DNA of 22,172 bases from a virus (Duplodnaviria > Heunggongvirae > Uroviricota > Caudoviricetes), in IMG/VR virus record IMGVR_UViG_2585427761_000022; one strand, written 5' to 3'. Each line of letters starts with the position of its first letter. Within the stretch, counting starts at the first letter, position 1. A program made the translations under genes and the position numbers. Positions 5,028 through 22,172 of the stretch are shown piece by piece. The notes beneath the pieces were generated by a model. That model was not told the DNA's origin. It did no database searches and saw nothing but the letters and a program-made list of their open reading frames with translations.

Positions 5028-7685
5028 ATGACGGCAGAGTACATCAGGGACTGGCAACAACCGCGCCACGCAGTGGGGCGTGAAGGAACGGGGATCCCCG
5101 CTCCTGAATCCGCGCTTTCCTCCTGGCTGGATGCCTACCGGGCAGAGAACGAGCGCCGCCAGGAAATGGCTGATGCGGCGTTCTCCGCCACGCCGCTGGG
5201 CAACCTGATTAATAAAAGCCTGGACGCACAGGAAAAACAGGACAAAACAATCACACTGGCAGGAGACGCCAGAAAACAGGCACGCGGCGCGGTAGATGAG
5301 GCCATGGCCTCACTGCGCCTGCTGCCGTCCTATCTGCGCGATCCGCTTATTCGCCACCTCTCCTTCCTGCGCAAAAAACAGGAAGCCGATCGTCAGAAAG
5401 GAAAAAACGCCAGGCAGGCAGAACGCTATGCGCGTGGGACCCTGCGCAAAATATTCGAACGTCTGGAGCGCACCGATCACCGCTGGCTGACATCGGGTTA
5501 TCGCTCCCTTGCCGGACGTGAACGCCTGGACGATTTGCTTTACCTGCCGCAACTCAACAAACACCAGATACAGACGCTGGCCACCATGACGGCGGCGATG
5601 TTCAGCAGCACCTTCGAAAAACTCTGCGATGGTTTTGGCGCGACTGATGGCGAGCTGACCATGGATGTAACGCTGAAGGCGTATCAGATGCTGGCCCGCA
5701 TGGCGTTACACTTACACGCCATGCCTCCGCATTATGACGCACTGACAACAGACAAAGACCGGAGGCACGAACCGGACACAGAACTGCTGCCGGGCGCAAT
5801 CCTTCGCCTGACCTGTGCGGAATGGTGGAAACGCAAACTGTGGCTGTTACGTTGCGAGTGGAGAGAAGAACAACTCCGCGCCGCCTGTCTGGTTTCCAGA
5901 AAAACATCGCCCTATCTGAGCCAGGACGCGTTAAGCGAGTTTCGCGCACAGCGCGAGAAAACACGCGATTTCCTGAAAAGTTTCATGCTGGAAAATGAAG
6001 ACGGGTTCACGATTGATCTCGAGACGGTGTATTACGCGGGAGTAAGTAACCCGGTTCACCGTAAGGCAGAAATGATGGCCACCATGAAGGGGCTGGAACT
6101 TCTGGCCGAAGCCCGTGGCGACAAAGCGGTGTTTCTGACTGTCACCTGCCCGTCAAAATACCACGCCACAACGGAGAACGGTCATCCGAATCCCAAATGG
6201 AACGGGGCCACAATGCGCGACTCCAGCGATTACCTGGTTAACACGTTTTTTGCGGCGGTCCGCAAAAAACTGAACCGCGACGACCTGCGCTGGTATGGCA
6301 TCCGCACGGTGGAGCCTCATCATGACGGCACCGTGCACTGGCATATGATGGTCTTTGCACATCCGGAAGAAATCGACACCATTGTGTCCCATACCCGCGA
6401 TATTGCCATTCAGGAAGACCGCCACGAGCTGGGCAATGATATTACTCCGCGCTTTAAGGTGGAGTATGTCGACGGCTCAAAAGGCACGCCAACCAGCTAC
6501 ATCGCCACCTACATCGGAAAGAACCTGGACAGCCGCGCCGTGGATGGCATCGACCCGAAAACGGACAAGCCACGCGTGGACCACGAAACCGGAAAATCAA
6601 TGGCCGAGAGCGTGGAACGCGCCATCGGCTGGGCGCGTCTTCACCGCGTCCGCCAGTTCCAGTTCTTTGGTATCCCCCCCCGTCAGGTATGGCGTGAACT
6701 CCGCCGCCTTGCCAGTCAGATGGCCCGCAACCCGGAAGGTCCACAACGTCTGGAAAATGACGCAATGGATGCGGTACTCGCTGCCGCTGATGCCGGGTGT
6801 TTTGCCACCTACATTGAGAAACAGGGTGGCGTACTTGTTCCACGCAAAGACTACCTGATTCGCACCGCCTACGACCTCGCAGAAGAGCTGAACGATTACG
6901 GCGAGCAAAGCGTACAGATTTACGGGATCTGGTCGCCACAAATCGGGGAATCTTCCCGCGTGTGCACGCACCCGGATAACTGGAAGCTGGTAAGACGTAA
7001 ACCGGAAGCGGAAGACAGCGCCCGCGAAAATGGTTTTGACCTTCAGGGCGGCCCTGCCGCCCCTTGGACTCGTGGCAATAACTGTCCCCGTGTACAGGAA
7101 ACGGACAACAACGGGACAGAACAGCCGGAAGAACGGCCAGCACCGTGGCCGCAGCTCCCTGACGGCGTTGAAGTGAACGAATGGATGCGCTCACTGAAAC
7201 GGCACGAACGCCGGGCGCTGATGCGTTCGCTTCGTGACAAACAGGCAAAAAACAGCAGTGATGAAGCGCAGAGCTGGACACAGAGCCGCAAACAGCAGCG
7301 GCCTTTGCCTGATAACCACGAATTACTCGCTAAAGAATGGCGGGAGTCTGCTGAATCTCTCGGCCTGCATATCGGTGAACAACAGATGCAGCACCTGTTA
7401 CGGGGCGGCAGTCTGTACGTTGACGGCAGCATCATTGCACCGCAGGGATTTGAAATTGTACGCAAACCGGATACCCGCCTGGACAGCCGAATCACGCAGC
7501 TCTGGCAGCGCCTGAGCCGTAATCATGGCGTAAGCAGCACGGAGATCCGCCATAACCCGGTCGCCAGCTATCTGGCACAGCTGGGGGCATCAGACCCTGA
7601 AGCCGCCGCACGCCTGGCATCGCCCCCATCAGTTGCGGCGGAACGCGGTGCGCAGCCAGCACATCATCACGGGATGCCGCCTTAA
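5028..7685 (+). CDS. A: Replication initiation protein A (rolling-circle HUH endonuclease) of P2-like phages, 885 aa with a long C-terminal extension
   Basis: HUH-like motif GTVHWHMMVF and paired active-site tyrosines in TSYIATYIGK (Y-x3-Y); size and position as P2 gpA. Confidence 0.85.
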   Translation: MTAEYIRDWQQPRHAVGREGTGIPAPESALSSWLDAYRAENERRQEMADAAFSATPLGNLINKSLDAQEKQDKTITLAGDARKQARGAVDEAMASLRLLPSYLRDPLIRHLSFLRKKQEADRQKGKNARQAERYARGTLRKIFERLERTDHRWLTSGYRSLAGRERLDDLLYLPQLNKHQIQTLATMTAAMFSSTFEKLCDGFGATDGELTMDVTLKAYQMLARMALHLHAMPPHYDALTTDKDRRHEPDTELLPGAILRLTCAEWWKRKLWLLRCEWREEQLRAACLVSRKTSPYLSQDALSEFRAQREKTRDFLKSFMLENEDGFTIDLETVYYAGVSNPVHRKAEMMATMKGLELLAEARGDKAVFLTVTCPSKYHATTENGHPNPKWNGATMRDSSDYLVNTFFAAVRKKLNRDDLRWYGIRTVEPHHDGTVHWHMMVFAHPEEIDTIVSHTRDIAIQEDRHELGNDITPRFKVEYVDGSKGTPTSYIATYIGKNLDSRAVDGIDPKTDKPRVDHETGKSMAESVERAIGWARLHRVRQFQFFGIPPRQVWRELRRLASQMARNPEGPQRLENDAMDAVLAAADAGCFATYIEKQGGVLVPRKDYLIRTAYDLAEELNDYGEQSVQIYGIWSPQIGESSRVCTHPDNWKLVRRKPEAEDSARENGFDLQGGPAAPWTRGNNCPRVQETDNNGTEQPEERPAPWPQLPDGVEVNEWMRSLKRHERRALMRSLRDKQAKNSSDEAQSWTQSRKQQRPLPDNHELLAKEWRESAESLGLHIGEQQMQHLLRGGSLYVDGSIIAPQGFEIVRKPDTRLDSRITQLWQRLSRNHGVSSTEIRHNPVASYLAQLGASDPEAAARLASPPSVAAERGAQPAHHHGMPP

Positions 7686-8496
7686 CATTCATGAACTCAT
7701 CCTTTGCGGTGATCTGCTGGAACGGCAAAATTTGCACCCCCTCTTTGCCCCCGTTGGGCGCATGGATGAGCACGTTTTTAAACGCGCCACCACCACGCGC
7801 ACCCTGTAACGTTTCTTTCAGGGAGTCCATGCTTTCGCGGTTTACCTGCGCTGCACCGATGTAGATGATGCACCCGGCGTGGGATCCATTGTCGTAATAC
7901 AGTTTTCTGAACATGTCCGCCGAATGAGACAGGCTGGCCGAGAGTAATGCGCCAAGATATTCCGGCATGCCGTAAATTTCCTGGTTAATGTCCGGATTCA
8001 TCAGGTGGCACACTTTGCCAGGGCGAAACTGAAACGCATCCTTGCCATCCTGCACATACCACCATGATTCAAGATCGCTTCCGCGTCGCATGTATTTCGC
8101 CAGGGCGTGCCGTAATTTAAGCGGTTCGCCGAACATATTGCTTCGAAGCTCAAGGAATGCGTTACCGAACACAAACCAGTCCAGCGCCAGCGCCGAGAAA
8201 TCCTGCCGGGAAAGCAGCGGGTGCGGGATGTAGCACCCGAGCAATACGTTGCGCTTAAAGTAAAGCGCAGACTGATGCCAGGACGTTTGCCGGGCGGCTC
8301 TTGCCAGACCGTACCAGTCCACCGGGGTTTCATACCACCGCCCGTTATCAGCACAGTACATATTGTCCAGCAAATCATGCCCGGTCAGGCGATAAGGACC
8401 ATCAAAAGTGAATGCACTGAGCGACGATTCTTTCCTGAGCGCATCAGCGAGATCAATGCGTGAACTCATGCGCACTTTTTTATTTTTTCTGCTCAT
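7492..8496 (-). CDS. Q: Portal (capsid portal vertex) protein, P2 gpQ-like
   Basis: 334-aa ORF with conserved portal segment AAHRVPPQLMG; ATG overlaps the terminase stop (TGATG coupling); convergent with A. Confidence 0.85.
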   Translation of the reverse strand: MSRKNKKVRMSSRIDLADALRKESSLSAFTFDGPYRLTGHDLLDNMYCADNGRWYETPVDWYGLARAARQTSWHQSALYFKRNVLLGCYIPHPLLSRQDFSALALDWFVFGNAFLELRSNMFGEPLKLRHALAKYMRRGSDLESWWYVQDGKDAFQFRPGKVCHLMNPDINQEIYGMPEYLGALLSASLSHSADMFRKLYYDNGSHAGCIIYIGAAQVNRESMDSLKETLQGARGGGAFKNVLIHAPNGGKEGVQILPFQQITAKDEFMNVKAASRDDVLAAHRVPPQLMGAMPGVRRLQGLMPPAVPDSWRPGYGGSPCCLRHDYGSGAARAA

Positions 8497-10246
8497 CAGA
8501 ACTCCATAACTGTGAAACGCTCGTTTTCTCCTTCGCCGCCAATTGGTTCGTTAATGACAGCAAGCATGGTTGCCCACGCAAGGTCGCCGTGGCTGCTCCC
8601 CCTCGCGCGGTCCGTTTCGTAAGTGATAAAGCCGCCCGGTGTTTTCACCTTACGCACGGCGTTAAAGGCCGCGACCAGCTCGCGTTCGGCGCGATCGTAT
8701 TCCCACCGCCCGGCACGCATTATTTGCAGCATTTTCAGTACAAGCGACCGTTTTGATGACAGCGTGAAGGTGTACGGAATAGCGGCAGGGAAAAACCGTT
8801 TCACTATCTGATAAACAGCCTCCCCGTTCCCGCCCGTCACATCAATGCCGATGTGTTCCACGTTGTAGCGATACGTGAAATCTTCAATGACTCTGGCCTG
8901 TTCTTCAAACTCCAGCCCCTGAACGCGTCGCGTCTCCACCGTTCGAAAACGGCCACCAGGAACAGCCGGAGGAACCACCACGGACACAGCGCCGCTGTCG
9001 CCGTTGCCACTGCTGCCGTTTGCGTCATACCCAATCCATACCGGACGATTCCCCATCGGGCGGGGAGCAAAAGGTTTCCAGTCTTTCCAGTCGTCGTATC
9101 CGTCAACACCGCAGCCAATCAGGATATTCAGGTTAAATGCCGATTCCCCTTCGCGGACAAACTCACACATATAGAGATTGAGGAACTCGTCTTCGGTGTT
9201 TTCATCACGAATTTCGTCGATATCGGTGTGTTTCCAGCCGTGATTAACCACATCTTCCAGCGTGACAATTTGCCGCCACGTCCGGTCAGGGCAGATAAGC
9301 CCGTTATGCAGCGTTTTCCAGTCCACAGAAAAACGCTGGCGTTTATGCGTGGCCTTTTTCTCGTTCCAGCGGTCGCCGTTCCAGTAGGCGTATGCTTCGT
9401 GCGTTTCGGTGGATGGCGTGGAGAAGTAGGTGCGCCGCAATCCGCTGAGGGTTGCCATAGCGCCAGCCACCTTGCGCAGTTCAGCAAAGCGACTGACCCA
9501 GAAAAATTCATCAAAATAAAAATTGCCCGTATAGGACTGCGCCGACGCAGCAGAAGTGCCGAGAAAATGCAGCTCTGCGCCGTTGGAGAGGATGATTTTA
9601 TCGCCCCCTTTCAGCTCCACATCAACTTCAGCCGCAGCCTTCTGAATAATGCTTTTAAACTGGAACGCCTGACGACGCGACGCAGACAAAAAATCTGGTT
9701 ACGCTGGTAAGGTTGCGCCACATCGTCACGCAGCGCCATCAGCAGTGCTTCCTGTGCAAAATACCAGGTCGCGCCAATCTGTCGGGATTTCAGGATCATC
9801 CTGTTACGTATCCCGGCTTCCCTGCAAAGGGTCAGGGAGTCAAACCAGCCCCGCTGATGCCACTCCAGCCTGCTGATGATTTTTTCCCGCAGTGCGGCAA
9901 TCTGTTCCGGCGTGAAATGATTTTTGAGTTTTTTCGCCCGGCCTTTCTTTCCTGTGGCCGTCGCATCCGGCTGGCCATCATGCATTTTTTTAAGCTGCCG
10001 GGTCAGCAGGTCTATTTCCTTAAAGTCACCGCCTGTTTTATTCTGTTTTTCAGTAAGCTAGATGAGGCGCGCATCGATGGACTGCGTGACACGCTGCACG
10101 GGTGGCGTTTCATCCCACTGGTCGCGTTTTTTCCACGCATAAATCGTGTTCGGGTTTATTCCCATCAGACGTGATATTTCTGCGGGCGGATAACCCTGCC
10201 AGTAAAGTTGCCGCGCACGCTGGCGCACAAAAGCGTCCTGAATCAT
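8496..10246 (-). pseudogene. P: Terminase large (ATPase) subunit, P2 gpP-like, disrupted by an in-frame TAG (10058-10060) and a 1-nt frameshift in an A6 tract (9688-9693)
   Basis: Three ORF-track fragments (10058-10246, 9611-9985, 8496-9689) that read as one terminase when joined: N-terminal HTH-like region, Walker A-like KSRQIGATWYFAQEAL, then large C-terminal domain. Confidence 0.7.
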
Positions 10247-10400
10247 TGCTCCCCCTGAGTAATTACAGGAAGATTACCCGCGCGCGAAACCGTTCTCCTT
10301 AACCCCCTGTTCTGGCCGTTTTCTTACAACAAAAGCCCTTTGTATCAGCCTGTTACGCTTTGCCATCATGACTGAAGAACCAGTCAGAGGGGCAAAAACT
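10247..10400. promoter_or_regulatory. Divergent late-promoter region between P (leftward) and O (rightward), expected site of Ogr/Delta-type activator-dependent promoters
   Basis: 154-bp intergenic region between divergent late operons, positionally as P2 P_P/P_O; no canonical TGT-N12-ACA dyad could be confirmed by eye. Confidence 0.4.
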
Positions 10401-15142: not shown

Positions 15143-15218
15143 CGCGGATAAACGGGCCATTGCTGAACTGGATAAGAGAATAGCCGAACTGACACACCAG
15201 ACGGGAGTAACACAATGA
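14907..15218 (+). CDS. o-spanin (Rz1 / LysC-like) outer-membrane lipoprotein, starting inside the i-spanin gene in the +1 frame and extending past it
   Basis: Lipobox LLTGC; Pro-rich mature region; GTG at 14907 with RBS GGAGAGG (ATG at 14937 is an alternative start); classic overlapped spanin architecture. Confidence 0.6.
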   Translation: MNSYATILQKMNAPTLCLTLVLLTGCAGTQNAPRPAPSIRLIPQTLTMPVTPPPFPAPPTWGNLGIWGDRLLDALETCNADKRAIAELDKRIAELTHQTGVTQ

Positions 15219-17095
15219 CCAGTAAGAACTTTGCACTGATTACAGCCATGACACAGGCTGAACTGACCCGGAAAGTGAATGAATATCTTGCGAAGGGGTG
15301 GCATCTTCAGGGGGACACACGGGTAGCTTACGAGCCCGGCACCCCGTGGTATCTCATGCAGGCCATGGTGGCCGATGGTGCCACCGAGACGCCCTCTGAG
15401 CCATTACCAAACAACAAGACGCCGGAATGGTACTACGTGGTTGTGCTTGCCGGGCAGTCCAACGGCATGGCTTACGGTGAAGGGCTTCCGTTACCGGATT
15501 CTTACGATGCTCCGGATCCGCGCATTAAACAGCTTGCGCGCCGCAGTACGGTAACCCCGGGTGGAGAGGGTTGTACGTATAACGACATCATCCCGGCTGA
15601 CCACTGTCTGCATGATGTGCAGGATATGAGTACGCTGAATCATCCGAAGGCGGACCTGAGCAAAGGTCAGTACGGCTGTGTGGGACAGGGACTTCATATT
15701 GCCAAAAAACTACTCCCGTATATCCCGAATAACGCGGGGATCCTGCTGGTACCATGCTGTCGTGGTGGTTCGGCATTCACTCAGGGCGCGGAGGGAACAT
15801 TCAGTACGACCACGGGGGCCAGCCAGGATTCGGCGCGCTGGGGTGCGGGTAAGCCGTTATATCAGGACCTGATCGCACGCACCAAAGCGGCATTACAGAA
15901 GAACCCGAAAAATGTGTTGCTGGCGGTGTGCTGGATGCAGGGCGAATTTGACATGAGCGCTGCCACCTACGCACAGCAACCGGACCTGTTCACGGCCATG
16001 CTGAAGCAGTTCCGTACTGACCTTTCCGGATTTAACGCGCAGTGCCATGGCGGCAGTGCTGCAGTTATACCGTGGATTTGTGGCGACACGACGTATTACT
16101 GGAAAAACACATACGGCACACAGTATGACTCCGTCTACGGCGCGTACAAAAACAGGGAGAGCGACAACGTTTTCTTTGTGCCGTTCATGACCGACGGTAA
16201 CGGCAACAACACGCCCACCAACTTACCGGCAGAAGACCCGGATATTGCTGATGCAGGTTATTACGGCGCGCAATCCCGTAGTAATGGTAATTGGGTATCG
16301 TCAAATCGTCCGACACATTTCAGTTCATGGGCGCGCAGGGGCATTATTTCGGATCGCCTGGCAACCGCTATTCTGAACGCAGTTGGTCGAACCAGCGCCT
16401 TCATCAGCGGTACCGCACCGGAAATCAAACCCTCGCCCGGCGGCGACACTCCATCGGGGCCGTCTGATGGTGACACATCCGTTCGTACAGTCTCCCTGCT
16501 GCCGACAGCCGGAGAGGCTGCTGCGCAGGGCTGGACCATCACCGGCGGCAGTGTTGCGCTGGAAGATGGTGTGTTTAAGGTTACCAAGCAGAGCAATAAA
16601 ACTTGGTCCCTGATGCATCCGGTGGATGACGCAGTCTCCCTGCTGACACGGGGTGGCAGACTGAGCTGTAAGTTTCGACTGTCAGGCGCACTGACCAACA
16701 ACCAGTTCGGTCTGGGAATTTATCTGTATACCGATGTAGCGTTACCTGACGTCGTGGCGATGACCGGGACTGGTAACCCGTTCCTGATGTCGTTCTTCAC
16801 CCAGACCACAGACGGCAAACTGAATCTGATGCATCACAAGAAAGCCGGAAACACAAAGTTGGGTGAGTTCGGGAATTACAGTAACGACTGGCAGACGCTG
16901 GAGCTGGTGTTCACCGCCGGCAGTGCCACGGTTACTCCGAAACTGAATGGAGTGGCTGGCCCGGCATTCCAGGTCATAAAAGACAGTCTGACACTGGGGC
17001 TGAATGCGCTGACGTTAACTGATATCACTAAAAATGCCGCGTACGGCGTCGATATCGGCAGCCTGGTGCTGGAAATCAATAATCCCGCAGTATAA
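15215..17095 (+). CDS. NanS-p-like sialate (9-O-acetyl) esterase moron: N-terminal DUF1737-like domain, SASA/SGNH-type esterase domain, C-terminal putative carbohydrate-binding domain
   Basis: 626 aa; N-terminus FALITAMTQAELTRKVNEYLAKGWHLQG (DUF1737-like); catalytic-type motif VVLAGQSNGMAYGEG; ATG overlaps the o-spanin stop; no equivalent gene in P2. Confidence 0.7.
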   Translation: MTSKNFALITAMTQAELTRKVNEYLAKGWHLQGDTRVAYEPGTPWYLMQAMVADGATETPSEPLPNNKTPEWYYVVVLAGQSNGMAYGEGLPLPDSYDAPDPRIKQLARRSTVTPGGEGCTYNDIIPADHCLHDVQDMSTLNHPKADLSKGQYGCVGQGLHIAKKLLPYIPNNAGILLVPCCRGGSAFTQGAEGTFSTTTGASQDSARWGAGKPLYQDLIARTKAALQKNPKNVLLAVCWMQGEFDMSAATYAQQPDLFTAMLKQFRTDLSGFNAQCHGGSAAVIPWICGDTTYYWKNTYGTQYDSVYGAYKNRESDNVFFVPFMTDGNGNNTPTNLPAEDPDIADAGYYGAQSRSNGNWVSSNRPTHFSSWARRGIISDRLATAILNAVGRTSAFISGTAPEIKPSPGGDTPSGPSDGDTSVRTVSLLPTAGEAAAQGWTITGGSVALEDGVFKVTKQSNKTWSLMHPVDDAVSLLTRGGRLSCKFRLSGALTNNQFGLGIYLYTDVALPDVVAMTGTGNPFLMSFFTQTTDGKLNLMHHKKAGNTKLGEFGNYSNDWQTLELVFTAGSATVTPKLNGVAGPAFQVIKDSLTLGLNALTLTDITKNAAYGVDIGSLVLEINNPAV

Positions 17096-20039: not shown

Positions 20040-20640
20040 TTCACTGTTACCACCATCAGCCAGCAATTTCATGCGTTGTGCCGAAGCCGTCGGAACACGC
20101 ATTACAGACATTCCGGTAGACCTCAACACGCTGTGGTCGCCGGACACCTGCCCGGTGCATCTGCTGCCTTATCTCGCCTGGGCGTTTTCCGTTGACCGCT
20201 GGGATCGCAACTGGCCGGAAGAGACAAAGCGACAGGTGATTCGTGATGCATGGCTGACACACCGACACAAAGGGACCATCAGCGCACTGCGAAGAGCCGT
20301 GGAGCCTCTCGGCTACCTGATTGAAGTAAAGGAGTGGTGGCAACTCAACGAGGAGCCAGGAACATTTCGCATTGTTGTCGGAGTACTTGATCAGGGCATC
20401 ACCGATGAAATGTATCAGGAACTTGAGCGCCTTATTGCGGATGCAAAACCAGTAAGTCGCCATCTGACGGGGCTGGCGATCAGCCTGAGTGTGAACGGAA
20501 AGATTTTCGTTGGTACGGGATGCTATCACGGCGATGCCCTGACGGTTTATCCCTACATCCCGGAGTCCATTATTGTCGAAGGGGATTATTTCCCTGCCCC
20601 GGCCATTCATTTAATTGATAATCTGAGAGTAAACGCATGA
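20032..20640 (+). CDS. I: Baseplate protein, P2 gpI-like
   Basis: ATG at 20032 overlapping the J stop; about 202 aa; position. Confidence 0.8.
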   Translation: MSNSLLPPSASNFMRCAEAVGTRITDIPVDLNTLWSPDTCPVHLLPYLAWAFSVDRWDRNWPEETKRQVIRDAWLTHRHKGTISALRRAVEPLGYLIEVKEWWQLNEEPGTFRIVVGVLDQGITDEMYQELERLIADAKPVSRHLTGLAISLSVNGKIFVGTGCYHGDALTVYPYIPESIIVEGDYFPAPAIHLIDNLRVNA

Positions 20641-22172
20641 CAGTGAAATACTACGCCATTCTGACTAATCAGGGCGCGGCGCGACTGGCTAACGCGACGA
20701 TGCCCGGCAGTAAGCTGAATCTGACGCAAATGGCCGTTGGTGATGCAAATGGTGTGTTACCAACACCAGACCCTGCACAAACAAAACTGATTAACCAGAA
20801 ACGCATTGCACCGCTGAATCTTCTGAATGTTGACCCTAACAATCAGAGCCAGATTATTGCGGAGCAAATCATCCCTGAAGACGAGGGAGGATTCTGGATC
20901 CGTGAGATTGGTCTTTATGATGATAAAGGTGTACTCATTGCGGTGGCAAACTGCCCGGAAACGTACAAACCGCAGTTGCAGGAAGGCAGTGGACGCACCC
21001 AGACTATCCGCATGATTCTGGTTGTCACGAACACCAAAGCCATCACGCTGAAAATCGACCCGTCTGTGGTTCTGGCAACCCGCAAATATGTGGATGATAA
21101 AATCTCAAAGCACGAGCAGTCACGACGTCACCCGGACGCCTCGCTGACCGCAAAAGGCTTTGTTCAACTCAGTAGCGCCACCAACAGCGATTCAGAAACG
21201 CTGGCGGCAACACCAAAGGCGGTAAAGGCAGCCTATGACCTTGCTAACGGGAAATATACCGCACAGGACGCCACGACAGCACAAAAAGGCATTGTCCAGC
21301 TCAGTAGCGCCACCAACAGCGATTCAGAAACGCTGGCGGCAACACCAAAGGCGGTAAAGGCAGCCTATGACCTTGCTAACGGGAAATATACCGCACAGGA
21401 CGCCACGACAGCACAAAAAGGCATTGTCCAGCTCAGTAGCGCCACCAACAGCGATTCAGAAACGCTGGCGGCAACACCAAAGGCGGTAAAGGCAGCCTAT
21501 GACCTTGCTAACGGGAAATATACCGCACAGGACGCCACGACAGCACAAAAAGGCATTGTCCAGCTCAGTAGCGCCACCAACAGCGATTCAGAAACGCTGG
21601 CGGCAACACCAAAGGCGGTAAAGGCAGCCTATGACCTTGCTAACGGGAAATATACCGCACAGGACGCCACGACGGCACAAAAAGGAATTGTCCAGCTCAG
21701 TAGTGCAACCAACAGCACATCTGAAACGCTTGCTGCAACACCGAAAGCAGTGAAAGCAGCTAATGACAATGCGAATGGTCGGGTACCTTCTGCCCGTAAG
21801 GTGAATGGTAAGGCGCTTTCGGCGGATATAACACTGACGCCGAAAGATATTGGTACGCTTAACTCAACAACAATGTCATTCAGCGGTGGTGCTGGTTGGT
21901 TCAAATTAGCAACGGTAACCATGCCACAGGCGAGTTCTGTTGTTTCAATTACGTTGATTGGTGGCGCTGGATTTAACGTCGGTTCACCTCAACAGGCAGG
22001 TATATCTGAACTTGTTTTGCGTGCAGGTAATGGTAATCCGAAGGGGATTACTGGTGCTTTATGGCAGCGCACATCGACAGGGTTTACAAATTTTGCCTGG
22101 GTCAATACATCTGGTGATACTTACGATATTTACGTTGCAATCGGAAATTATGCGACTGGTGTAAATATTCAA
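20637..22172 (+). CDS. H: Tail fibre protein, P2 gpH-like, 5' partial (open to window end); not in the supplied ORF track
   Basis: ATGA overlap with the I stop; open frame to the window edge; recalled similarity to the P2 gpH N-terminus (RHPDASLTAKGF.QLSSATNS.SETLAATPKAVKAAYDLANGKYTAQDAT). Confidence 0.8.
   Translation, partial: MTVKYYAILTNQGAARLANATMPGSKLNLTQMAVGDANGVLPTPDPAQTKLINQKRIAPLNLLNVDPNNQSQIIAEQIIPEDEGGFWIREIGLYDDKGVLIAVANCPETYKPQLQEGSGRTQTIRMILVVTNTKAITLKIDPSVVLATRKYVDDKISKHEQSRRHPDASLTAKGFVQLSSATNSDSETLAATPKAVKAAYDLANGKYTAQDATTAQKGIVQLSSATNSDSETLAATPKAVKAAYDLANGKYTAQDATTAQKGIVQLSSATNSDSETLAATPKAVKAAYDLANGKYTAQDATTAQKGIVQLSSATNSDSETLAATPKAVKAAYDLANGKYTAQDATTAQKGIVQLSSATNSTSETLAATPKAVKAANDNANGRVPSARKVNGKALSADITLTPKDIGTLNSTTMSFSGGAGWFKLATVTMPQASSVVSITLIGGAGFNVGSPQQAGISELVLRAGNGNPKGITGALWQRTSTGFTNFAWVNTSGDTYDIYVAIGNYATGVNIQ
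21168..21770 (+). repeat. In-frame 132-bp (44-codon) tandem repeat inside tail-fibre gene H: three identical copies, a fourth with 2 substitutions, and diverged flanking copies
   Basis: Copies start at 21168, 21300, 21432, 21564 and (diverged) 21696; unit encodes LSSATNSDSETLAATPKAVKAAYDLANGKYTAQDATTAQKGIVQ. Confidence 0.9.

What the first reader, a model, noticed from the sequence alone, without database searches (positions are those of the whole stretch)
21148..21770. Expanded, nearly identical 132-bp in-frame tandem repeat in tail-fibre gene H
Three copies are 100% identical and a fourth differs at two positions, with diverged copies flanking. Each unit encodes 44 aa (LSSATNSDSETLAATPKAVKAAYDLANGKYTAQDATTAQKGIVQ). 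I recall P2 gpH having about two copies of a related motif, so this looks like a recent expansion by slipped-strand or unequal recombination. It would lengthen the fibre shaft, may alter receptor reach, and may vary between isolates. Perfect long repeats are also an assembly hazard, so the copy number may be mis-collapsed.
Basis: seen in the sequence. Interest (0 to 1): 0.45.

Follow-up and report, generated by a model that had tools for sequence, protein, structure and literature searches.

The report
Variable-length repeat in prophage tail-fibre gene
A 132-bp in-frame repeat in the tail-fibre gene of a decaying P2-like E. coli prophage is present in five copies where its closest relatives have two or three, which is ordinary copy-number variation of a known fibre module, and the 100-bp reads behind this draft assembly cannot confirm the count.

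Summary
Window 21152-21767 holds 4.7 head-to-tail copies of a 132-bp unit, in frame, inside P2-type tail-fibre gene H (starts at 20637 and runs off the window end). Each unit is one Pfam Phage_fiber_2 repeat, and there are five; P2 gpH has two.

Prophages with near-identical flanks carry 3 units (11 complete E. coli genomes) or 2 units (1 genome). Other H alleles carry 1-6, and other enterobacterial fibres carry up to 11-12. Five copies is therefore a copy-number variant of a known module.

The two extra units are exact hybrids of the neighbouring units. Unequal crossing-over or slippage would produce exactly that. So would an assembler going round a repeat loop too often.

The window is the end of a draft contig (E. 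coli 3_475_03_S3_C2) built from 100-bp Illumina reads with MaSuRCA. Every k-mer up to 111 nt of the 5-unit gene also occurs in a 3-unit version, and 506 bp are perfectly periodic. The count of five is unverified.

The prophage also looks defective: a 2,973-bp deletion truncates the replication and portal genes, and the terminase gene has a frameshift. Any effect on fibre reach is therefore probably moot here.

Verdict: ordinary, low interest.

The parts
20637..22172 (+). Tail-fibre gene H, 5' 1,536 nt (512 codons). It has no stop codon because the window ends at the end of the draft contig.
   Evidence: Translation. Pfam PF12571 plus 5 x PF03406. PHROG tail-fibre families. The exact 512-aa partial protein P0003 lies at the end of contig JOQE01000008.1.
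20637..21086 (+). N-terminal tail-collar fibre (PF12571) domain, aa 1-150; baseplate attachment is inferred.
   Evidence: PF12571 matches aa 1-150, E = 1.7e-61.
21156..21287 (+). Repeat unit 1 (u1, codons 174-217, GFVQ type). Identical to unit 1 of the 3-unit DEC5E allele.
   Evidence: Unit comparison, 0 differences from L001 u1.
21288..21419 (+). Repeat unit 2 (h). A hybrid: the 5' sites (positions 4, 9, 12) match u2 and position 123 matches u1. Absent from the closest relatives.
21420..21551 (+). Repeat unit 3 (h), identical to unit 2 over all 132 nt. Absent from the closest relatives.
21552..21683 (+). Repeat unit 4 (u2). Identical to unit 2 of the DEC5E and 55989 alleles. Carries G at position 123 (window 21674).
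21684..21815 (+). Repeat unit 5, the diverged terminal unit, identical to the last unit of the relatives. Different C-terminal modules are joined to the array within this unit.
   Evidence: Alleles with other C-termini diverge from this one within the last unit.
21168..21673 (.). A 506-bp stretch with exact 132-nt periodicity. A single read must span it to count the units.
21816..22172 (+). Fibre region after the array, up to the contig end. In relatives it continues for about 243 more residues, with a Collar domain and His-rich repeats.
   Evidence: 489 of 489 nt from the last unit to the window end match the 55989 allele. Full-length relatives L001 and L087.

Best explanation
The feature is an in-frame, variable-number tandem array of the 44-aa Phage_fiber_2 module. 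It sits in the proximal shaft of a P2-type tail fibre (gene H), between the N-terminal tail-collar domain (baseplate attachment inferred) and the exchangeable distal receptor-binding part.

The 132-bp units are long and nearly identical. Misaligned pairing between neighbouring units, either unequal sister-strand or homologous exchange or replication slippage, therefore adds or removes whole units without breaking the reading frame.

The window's allele looks like a 3-unit allele of the DEC5E type (u1-u2-last) that gained one unit twice. That gives u1-h-h-u2-last, where h is the recombinant unit with the 5' end of u2 and the 3' end of u1.

Each extra unit would add 44 residues per chain to the trimeric shaft. 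This last step is inferred, not shown.

The prophage carrying the gene is a decaying lineage with truncated replication and portal genes and a frameshifted terminase. The expansion is therefore most likely a neutral by-product of repeat instability, not an adaptation.

The count of five comes from a short-read draft and needs confirmation.
For: - Array and frame.
- Domain identity and synteny.
- Flanks are essentially identical to the 3-unit alleles. The first 519 nt of H match at 517 of 519 (DEC5E); from the last unit to the window end, 488-489 of 489 match. Units u1, u2 and the last unit are identical to DEC5E's three units, and the two extra units are the predicted u2/u1 hybrid.
- A reciprocal contraction exists. 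The 2-unit allele of strain Z1323HEC0475 has a first unit that is a hybrid of 55989 u1 and u2.
- Among complete genomes with this allele type, 11 have 3 units and 1 has 2.
- Adjacent units with zero DNA differences recur in independent arrays, including ones from complete genomes: strain 1450 [4,0,0,28] and the ST95-32 lambdoid side-fibre gene [25,8,0,49]. They also occur in P0001 and the metagenome-assembled genome (MAG) locus L071. An old 5-unit array with 22-28 differences between units also exists in the RIVM strains.
- Copy numbers across the family: mostly 1 in other Enterobacterales, 2 in P2, 2-6 in E. coli H alleles, up to 11-12 in other fibres.
- Defective prophage.
Against: - The 5-unit form of this allele is a singleton. 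It appears in none of 5,426 complete E. coli genomes and in no other retrieved protein cluster.
- It comes from 100-bp reads assembled with MaSuRCA.
- All k-mers up to 111 nt of the 5-unit gene also occur in a 3-unit version. The hybrid units therefore carry no independent read-level support.
- No 4-unit intermediate with these flanks was found among the 229 proteins retrieved.
- Direction (3 to 5, or 5 to 3) rests on parsimony alone.
- The structural consequence is untested. The AlphaFold2 monomer model was unusable, with mean pLDDT 36.5.
Confidence: 0.6

Rival explanations
1. Assembly miscount. The isolate carries the common 3-unit allele, or some other number of units, and the assembler went round the repeat loop the wrong number of times. 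On this reading the two 'extra' hybrid units are artefacts.
For: - The source is an Illumina HiSeq 2000 draft with 100-bp reads, assembled with MaSuRCA 2.3.2 into 203 contigs.
- Every k-mer up to 111 nt of the 5-unit gene is present in an in-silico 3-unit version, and 506 bp are perfectly periodic.
- Among 10 public contigs encoding the identical neighbouring gpI protein, 3 end at the first bases of the array and 1 ends in unit 2. One has a 100-N gap inside the array, and 2 end just after a 2-unit version.
- Many short Logan contigs also end there.
- The 5-unit form is a singleton.
- The contig itself ends 357 bp after the fifth unit (405 bp after the TRF array end).
Against: - From general knowledge of assemblers, collapse of tandem repeats is more usual than over-expansion.
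- The contig passes through the array without a break, which suggests mate-pair or depth support.
- Arrays of 5-6 units with identical adjacent units exist in complete genomes, so the structure is biologically plausible.
Confidence: 0.3
2. The 5-unit state is ancestral for this allele, and the 3- and 2-unit alleles in relatives are contractions. The window would then show retention, not recent expansion.
For: - Contraction clearly occurs: the Z1323HEC0475 2-unit allele derives from the 55989 3-unit allele.
- Deleting the two h units from u1-h-h-u2-last by equal-register exchange regenerates exactly u1-u2-last, so unit structure alone does not give direction.
Against: - Three units are found in all 11 complete genomes across two sublineages. 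One of these, the 55989 type, has a u1 that differs from the window's at 14 sites.
- The h units are hybrids of u1 and u2, identical to each other, and show no private substitutions. That points to very recent origin.
Confidence: 0.06
3. The array is a selected 'contingency' length switch. Frequent, reversible changes in unit number would tune fibre length to the depth of the host's O-antigen or capsule layer, and the five units would be an adaptation.
For: - Copy number ranges from 1 to 6 in H alleles and up to 12 in other fibres.
- Recent duplications recur.
- Old, diverged 5-unit arrays are maintained, so long shafts are functional.
Against: - This prophage is defective, so selection on virion adsorption is unlikely here.
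- No data link unit number to host surface type.
- The repeat always stays in frame, so it is not an on/off switch.
- No measurement of switching rate exists.
Confidence: 0.04

Closest known systems
Bacteriophage P2 tail-fibre protein gpH (NP_046775, 669 aa)
   Same: Same N-terminal PF12571 domain. The same 44-aa Phage_fiber_2 units begin at about residue 170-175. Same gene order J-I-H, with G downstream in relatives.
   Different: P2 has 2 units, which differ at 55 of 132 nt. The window has 5, three of them near-identical. The distal receptor-binding part is different.
H alleles of near-identical P88/Xuanwuvirus-like prophages in E. coli DEC5E, OkiPb01713 and 55989 (3 units) and Z1323HEC0475 (2 units)
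   Same: Flanks differ by 0-7 nt. The first, penultimate and last units are identical (DEC5E) or nearly so. The post-array region is the same.
   Different: The window has two additional hybrid units (264 bp). The window's prophage also carries a 2,973-bp deletion and a terminase frameshift that are absent from 55989.
Five-unit H alleles in complete genomes (strain 1450; RIVM strains)
   Same: Same number of units with the same spacing. Strain 1450 also has three identical interior units.
   Different: Their units differ from the window's at 7-27 sites, and their C-terminal modules are different. The RIVM array is old, with 22-28 differences between adjacent units.
Side tail fibres of lambdoid and other enterobacterial phages with Phage_fiber_2 arrays (lambda Stf family; Mu gpS, PDB 5YVQ/8JU3/9KI1)
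   Same: The same repeat module. A lambdoid fibre gene next to lom has 5 units with an identical adjacent pair. Representative proteins have up to 11-12 units. Mu gpS matches the last unit.
   Different: Their N-terminal attachment domains and phage types differ. Some arrays are built from a two-unit super-repeat of about 105 aa.
Length-variable repeat shafts and in-frame VNTRs elsewhere (adenovirus fibre shaft repeats; long identical repeats in bacterial surface proteins such as the group B Streptococcus alpha C protein). Cited from my own knowledge, not tested here.
   Same: It would work the same way: whole-unit gain and loss by misaligned recombination changes the length of a fibrous surface protein without a frameshift.
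   Different: These are unrelated sequences and folds. For them, functional effects of length are documented; here none is.

Membership tests
P2-type tail-fibre protein H | N-terminal phage tail-collar fibre domain (PF12571) | tested here: met
   aa 1-150, E = 1.7e-61, 207 bits against a cut-off of 23.
P2-type tail-fibre protein H | Phage_fiber_2 (PF03406) repeats directly after the N-terminal domain | tested here: met
   Five stretches, 344 bits, the first at aa 169-209. P2 gpH has two at the same position.
P2-type tail-fibre protein H | Position in the late operon after baseplate genes V, W, J and I | tested here: met
   Neighbouring products match Phage_base_V, GPW_gp25, Baseplate_J and Tail_P2_I.
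P2-type tail-fibre protein H | Distal receptor-binding domain and a downstream tail-fibre assembly (gpG/Tfa) gene | not testable with these tools
   The contig ends at window position 22172, inside the gene. Both features are present in near-identical relatives.
P2-type tail-fibre protein H | Homotrimeric fibre structure | tested here: inconclusive
   Only a monomer prediction was possible, with mean pLDDT 36.5. The only solved relative by sequence is Mu gpS, which matches a single unit.
Recombination- or slippage-driven in-frame VNTR | Head-to-tail units of constant length, a multiple of 3, and near-identical at the DNA level | tested here: met
   Period 132 with no indels; adjacent-unit differences of 3, 0 and 1.
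Recombination- or slippage-driven in-frame VNTR | Copy-number differences between otherwise near-identical alleles | tested here: met
   2, 3 and 5 units on flanks differing by 0-7 nt.
Recombination- or slippage-driven in-frame VNTR | New units are hybrids of the neighbouring parental units | tested here: met
   h combines the 5' end of u2 with the 3' end of u1, and the contraction allele L003 has the reciprocal hybrid. The same pattern is expected from an assembly loop.
Recombination- or slippage-driven in-frame VNTR | Copy number in this isolate supported by reads spanning the array | not testable with these tools
   The reads are 100 bp and are not available here. A 506-bp periodic stretch must be spanned.
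Phase-variable contingency locus | Repeat changes switch expression on and off, or change at high measured frequency within a clone | tested here: not met
   The unit is 132 nt (44 codons), so every copy number stays in frame. Switching frequency was not measurable.
Invertible-segment (Gin/Cin-type) tail-fibre switching | An invertase gene and an inverted alternative C-terminal segment downstream of the fibre gene | not testable with these tools
   The region lies beyond the contig end. Relatives with this receptor-binding domain have a tail-fibre assembly gene and then an acetyltransferase gene, with no invertase. A different allele, strain 1450, does have a recombinase gene downstream.

The most novel reading that the evidence does not exclude
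The Phage_fiber_2 array may be a fast, reversible length dial that P2-like and lambdoid phages, and tailocin-like remnants, use to match fibre reach to the thickness of the host O-antigen or capsule layer. Unit number would change often enough to create standing variation within a lysogen population. The window's 5-unit allele would then be a snapshot of that process.
Probability: 0.08. Interest if true: 0.5.

Novelty: new member of a known kind. Interest (0 to 1): 0.2.

Why it matters
If the five units are real, this is a clean natural example of stepwise unit gain in a tail-fibre shaft. The parental 3-unit allele, a 2-unit contraction and the recombinant junction units are all identifiable.

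It also shows that the shaft module shared by P2-type and lambdoid fibres changes length readily. That is useful background for engineering P2- and P4-based delivery particles and tailocins.

In practice, the main value is as a caution. Tail-fibre gene lengths and 'partial' tail-fibre annotations from short-read E. coli drafts are unreliable at this array. Many drafts break there, and reads of 111 nt or less cannot determine copy number.

Tried and rejected
- My first translation was one base out of frame. It was corrected to ATG 20637.
- AlphaFold2 monomer prediction of aa 154-434 with an 18-sequence alignment gave mean pLDDT 36.5 and pTM 0.21, which is unusable. I therefore ran no fold search and give no per-unit length estimate.
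- The sequence search of the PDB found only Mu fibre proteins matching one unit. According to the 9KI1 paper, only the N-terminus of gp49 was modelled there and the published crystal structure covers the C-terminus, so the fold of the repeat remains undescribed.
- Literature searches found no paper on copy-number variation of this repeat in P2-like H genes. A 2012 paper states that little is known about the Pf2 domain. The 1992 P2 tail-fibre paper is not held.
- I looked for a 4-unit intermediate or a second 5-unit copy of this allele, using a flank-only protein query and a scan of complete genomes. None was found.
- I tried to find sibling isolates. All six isolates from this child belong to different lineages.
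- Chi sites: the window has no true Chi. A one-mismatch octamer, GCTGGCGG, occurs once per unit, but the count is not significant and I make no claim from it.
- Gene conversion of an old 5-unit array was considered and rejected, because u1, u2 and the last unit are identical to those of the 3-unit allele.

Full report
**1. Observation**

Tandem Repeats Finder reports a single strong array in the window: 21152-21767, period 132, 4.7 copies, 95% matches, no indels, score 1092. The repeat finder shows the same 132-nt spacing. The array lies in an ORF that starts at ATG 20637 and is still open at the last base of the window (my first attempt was out of frame).

In the register starting at codon 174, the units are:
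- u1, 21156-21287
- h, 21288-21419
- h, 21420-21551
- u2, 21552-21683
- a diverged fifth unit, 21684-21815.

Adjacent units differ at 3, 0, 1 and 51 of 132 positions. The only correction is that a diverged copy exists on the 3' side only.

**2. What the gene is**

Pfam finds the phage tail-collar fibre N-terminal domain (PF12571, aa 1-150) followed by five Phage_fiber_2 repeats (PF03406). PHROGs assigns the protein to tail-fibre families. The upstream genes encode GpR, GpS, baseplate V, W, J and tail protein I.

The whole window is a P2-like prophage of the P88/Xuanwuvirus type. It is 95% identical to phages 520873 and P88. It is 99.3-99.5% identical to prophages in E. coli OkiPb01713 and 55989.

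**3. Source of the window**

The 512-aa partial protein is identical to a GenBank entry from E. coli 3-475-03_S3_C2. The gene ends exactly at the end of contig JOQE01000008.1, which is 153,837 bp long.

That isolate is ST29, phylogroup B1, O71:H8, from a Tanzanian child. It was sequenced on an Illumina HiSeq 2000 with 100-bp reads and assembled with MaSuRCA 2.3.2 into 203 contigs (PMC6222053).

**4. Comparison with relatives**

In complete E. coli genomes, the 11 prophages with the same allele type span 587 bp where the query spans 851 bp. That is two units fewer, or 3 units. One genome spans 455 bp, or 2 units. No complete genome has 5 units of this allele.

Sequence inspection confirms 3 units in DEC5E and 55989, 2 in Z1323HEC0475, and 5 in strain 1450, which has a different C-terminal module.

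At the DNA level, the window's u1, u2 and last unit are identical to the three units of DEC5E. The flanks match at 517 of 519 nt and 488 of 489 nt. The two extra units are identical to each other and are exact hybrids: u2-type at positions 4, 9 and 12, and u1-type at position 123. Misaligned exchange between u1 and u2 of a 3-unit parent, occurring twice, would produce exactly this. The 2-unit allele carries the reciprocal kind of hybrid relative to 55989, so contraction also occurs.

**5. Family-wide picture**

- Among 229 retrieved E. coli homologues, copy number runs from 1 to 6. The sample is biased by score and by partial proteins.
- In 79 loci from other Enterobacterales species, H homologues mostly have one unit. 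Exceptions are an Enterobacter locus with 2 and a metagenome-assembled genome (MAG) with 4.
- A search of 1.84 billion representative proteins with one unit found 1,331 proteins. These include fibres with 11 and 12 units at 86-87% identity to the window's unit, some built from an exactly repeated two-unit block.
- Identical adjacent units recur in independent arrays. Adjacent-unit differences are [4,0,0,28] in strain 1450, [25,8,0,49] in the ST95-32 lambdoid side-fibre gene, [18,0,18,14,45] in P0001 and [12,0,38] in MAG L071. The RIVM strains carry an old 5-unit array with 22-28 differences between units.

The array is therefore generally unstable in length, and long versions are also stably maintained. 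Alleles with different C-terminal modules diverge within the last unit. This fits the long-held view that this conserved motif serves as a joint for exchanging distal fibre parts (that interpretation comes from my own knowledge of the P2, Mu and lambda tail-fibre literature).

**6. Can the count of five be trusted?**

The stretch 21168-21673 (506 bp) is perfectly periodic. Every k-mer up to 111 nt in the 5-unit gene also occurs in an in-silico 3-unit version. Hence 100-bp reads cannot distinguish 3, 4, 5 or more units by sequence content. Only depth or insert size can.

The hybrid units are also exactly what extra passes round the assembly-graph loop would give. They are therefore not independent evidence of recombination.

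Other drafts show the hazard. Ten contigs encode the identical neighbouring gpI protein; one of them is the window's own contig.
- 3 end at the first bases of the array.
- 1 ends in unit 2.
- 1 scaffold has a 100-N gap inside the array.
- 2 end just after a 2-unit version.
- 2 show 3 units, and only one of those two has a complete H gene.

Many short Logan contigs also end there.

From general knowledge, assemblers more often collapse tandem repeats than expand them. The contig also passes through the array without a break. I therefore put about 0.6 on a real expansion and 0.3 on a miscount.

**7. Context that changes the functional reading**

Relative to the 55989 prophage, the window lacks 2,973 bp. 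The junction is at 7611-7621 and has short microhomology. The deletion removes the last 230 nt of the replication endonuclease gene, the parM/parR-like module, two small genes and the last 161 nt of the portal gene. PHROG profiles confirm that both proteins are truncated.

The terminase large-subunit gene (8496-10247, minus strand) has a -1 frameshift in an A7-to-A6 run near 9687.

The same fused replication protein occurs on 14 contigs from independent samples. Some of these also carry the terminase frameshift or a split scaffold gene, and one has an intact terminase. This is therefore a real, decaying prophage lineage and not an assembly artefact. The fibre is thus unlikely to be used by an infectious virion in this strain, and the expansion is best read as neutral repeat instability.

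**8. Mechanism and function**

Shown:
- an in-frame tandem array of a known fibre module;
- copy-number polymorphism on identical flanks;
- hybrid junction units;
- recurrent identical neighbouring units in other arrays.

Inferred:
- gain and loss by unequal exchange or replication slippage between 132-bp units (from my own knowledge, both RecA-dependent and RecA-independent routes are known for repeats of this size in E. coli);
- each unit lengthening the trimeric proximal shaft by 44 residues per chain.

Not shown: any effect on receptor reach. The monomer structure prediction failed, with pLDDT 36.5. Solved structures cover only a single related unit in the sequence of Mu gpS. A 2012 paper states that little is known about this domain.

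**9. Verdict**

It is an ordinary copy-number variant of a widespread tail-fibre repeat, sitting in a defective prophage, with a copy number that the underlying data cannot verify. It is a new allele of a known kind and of low interest. Its main practical lesson is that this array breaks or confounds short-read assemblies.

Noticed in passing
window 7611-7621 (junction); affects ORFs 5028-7685 (+) and 7492-8496 (-): A 2,973-bp deletion relative to the E. coli 55989 prophage, at a short microhomology (GGCATC). It removes the 3' end of the replication endonuclease gene, parM/parR-like genes, two small genes and the 3' end of the portal gene, leaving two convergent, overlapping truncated ORFs. 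The same fused protein occurs on 14 contigs from independent samples.
   Followed up: yes
window about 9681-9693, within 8496-10247 (- strand): A -1 frameshift (A7 in 55989, A6 here) splits the terminase large-subunit gene into fragments of 62, 124 and 374-397 aa. It is present in several members of the deletion lineage but absent from one (L104). Some members also have a split scaffold gene, which indicates progressive prophage decay.
   Followed up: partly
window 22172 (end): The window ends exactly at the end of draft contig JOQE01000008.1, inside gene H and 357 bp after the fifth unit (405 bp after the TRF array end). About 243 codons of the gene and the tail-fibre assembly gene are missing. 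Most of the 129 retrieved homologues shorter than 600 aa are annotated 'partial' in GenBank.
   Followed up: yes
window 15215-17095 (+): A 626-aa protein with DUF1737 (weak), SASA (sialate O-acetylesterase-like) and DUF6645 domains sits between the lysis cassette and tail genes R/S. It looks like a cargo gene, reminiscent (from my own knowledge) of the NanS-p esterases of Stx phages. PHROG phrog_143, function unknown.
   Followed up: no
L001 6263-6835, L002 6275-6847, L003 6143-6715 (- strand): In the closest relatives, a serine acetyltransferase gene lies on the opposite strand just after the tail-fibre assembly gene. It may be a lysogenic-conversion cargo gene. The region is beyond the window.
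   Followed up: no
L004 6082-7226: The strain 1450 prophage (5 near-identical units, different C-terminal module) has a recombinase-family gene and an oppositely oriented tail-protein fragment downstream of the fibre genes. This suggests an invertible host-range segment.
   Followed up: no
L099 113-3355: A 1,080-aa lambdoid side tail-fibre gene next to an Ail/Lom gene (E. coli ST95-32) carries five of the same 44-aa units at aa 468-687, including one identical adjacent pair. The module and its instability are therefore shared across phage types.
   Followed up: partly
window 21200-21207, 21332-21339, 21464-21471, 21596-21603: Each of the first four units contains GCTGGCGG, one mismatch from the Chi octamer GCTGGTGG. 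The window has no true Chi, and the count is not significant against shuffles (5 found, 2.1 expected).
   Followed up: partly
P0230 and P0231 (representative proteins): Tail-fibre proteins with 11-12 Phage_fiber_2 units, organised as an exactly repeated two-unit block of about 105 aa that contains an HTHPW motif. This is a higher-order repeat of the same module.
   Followed up: no
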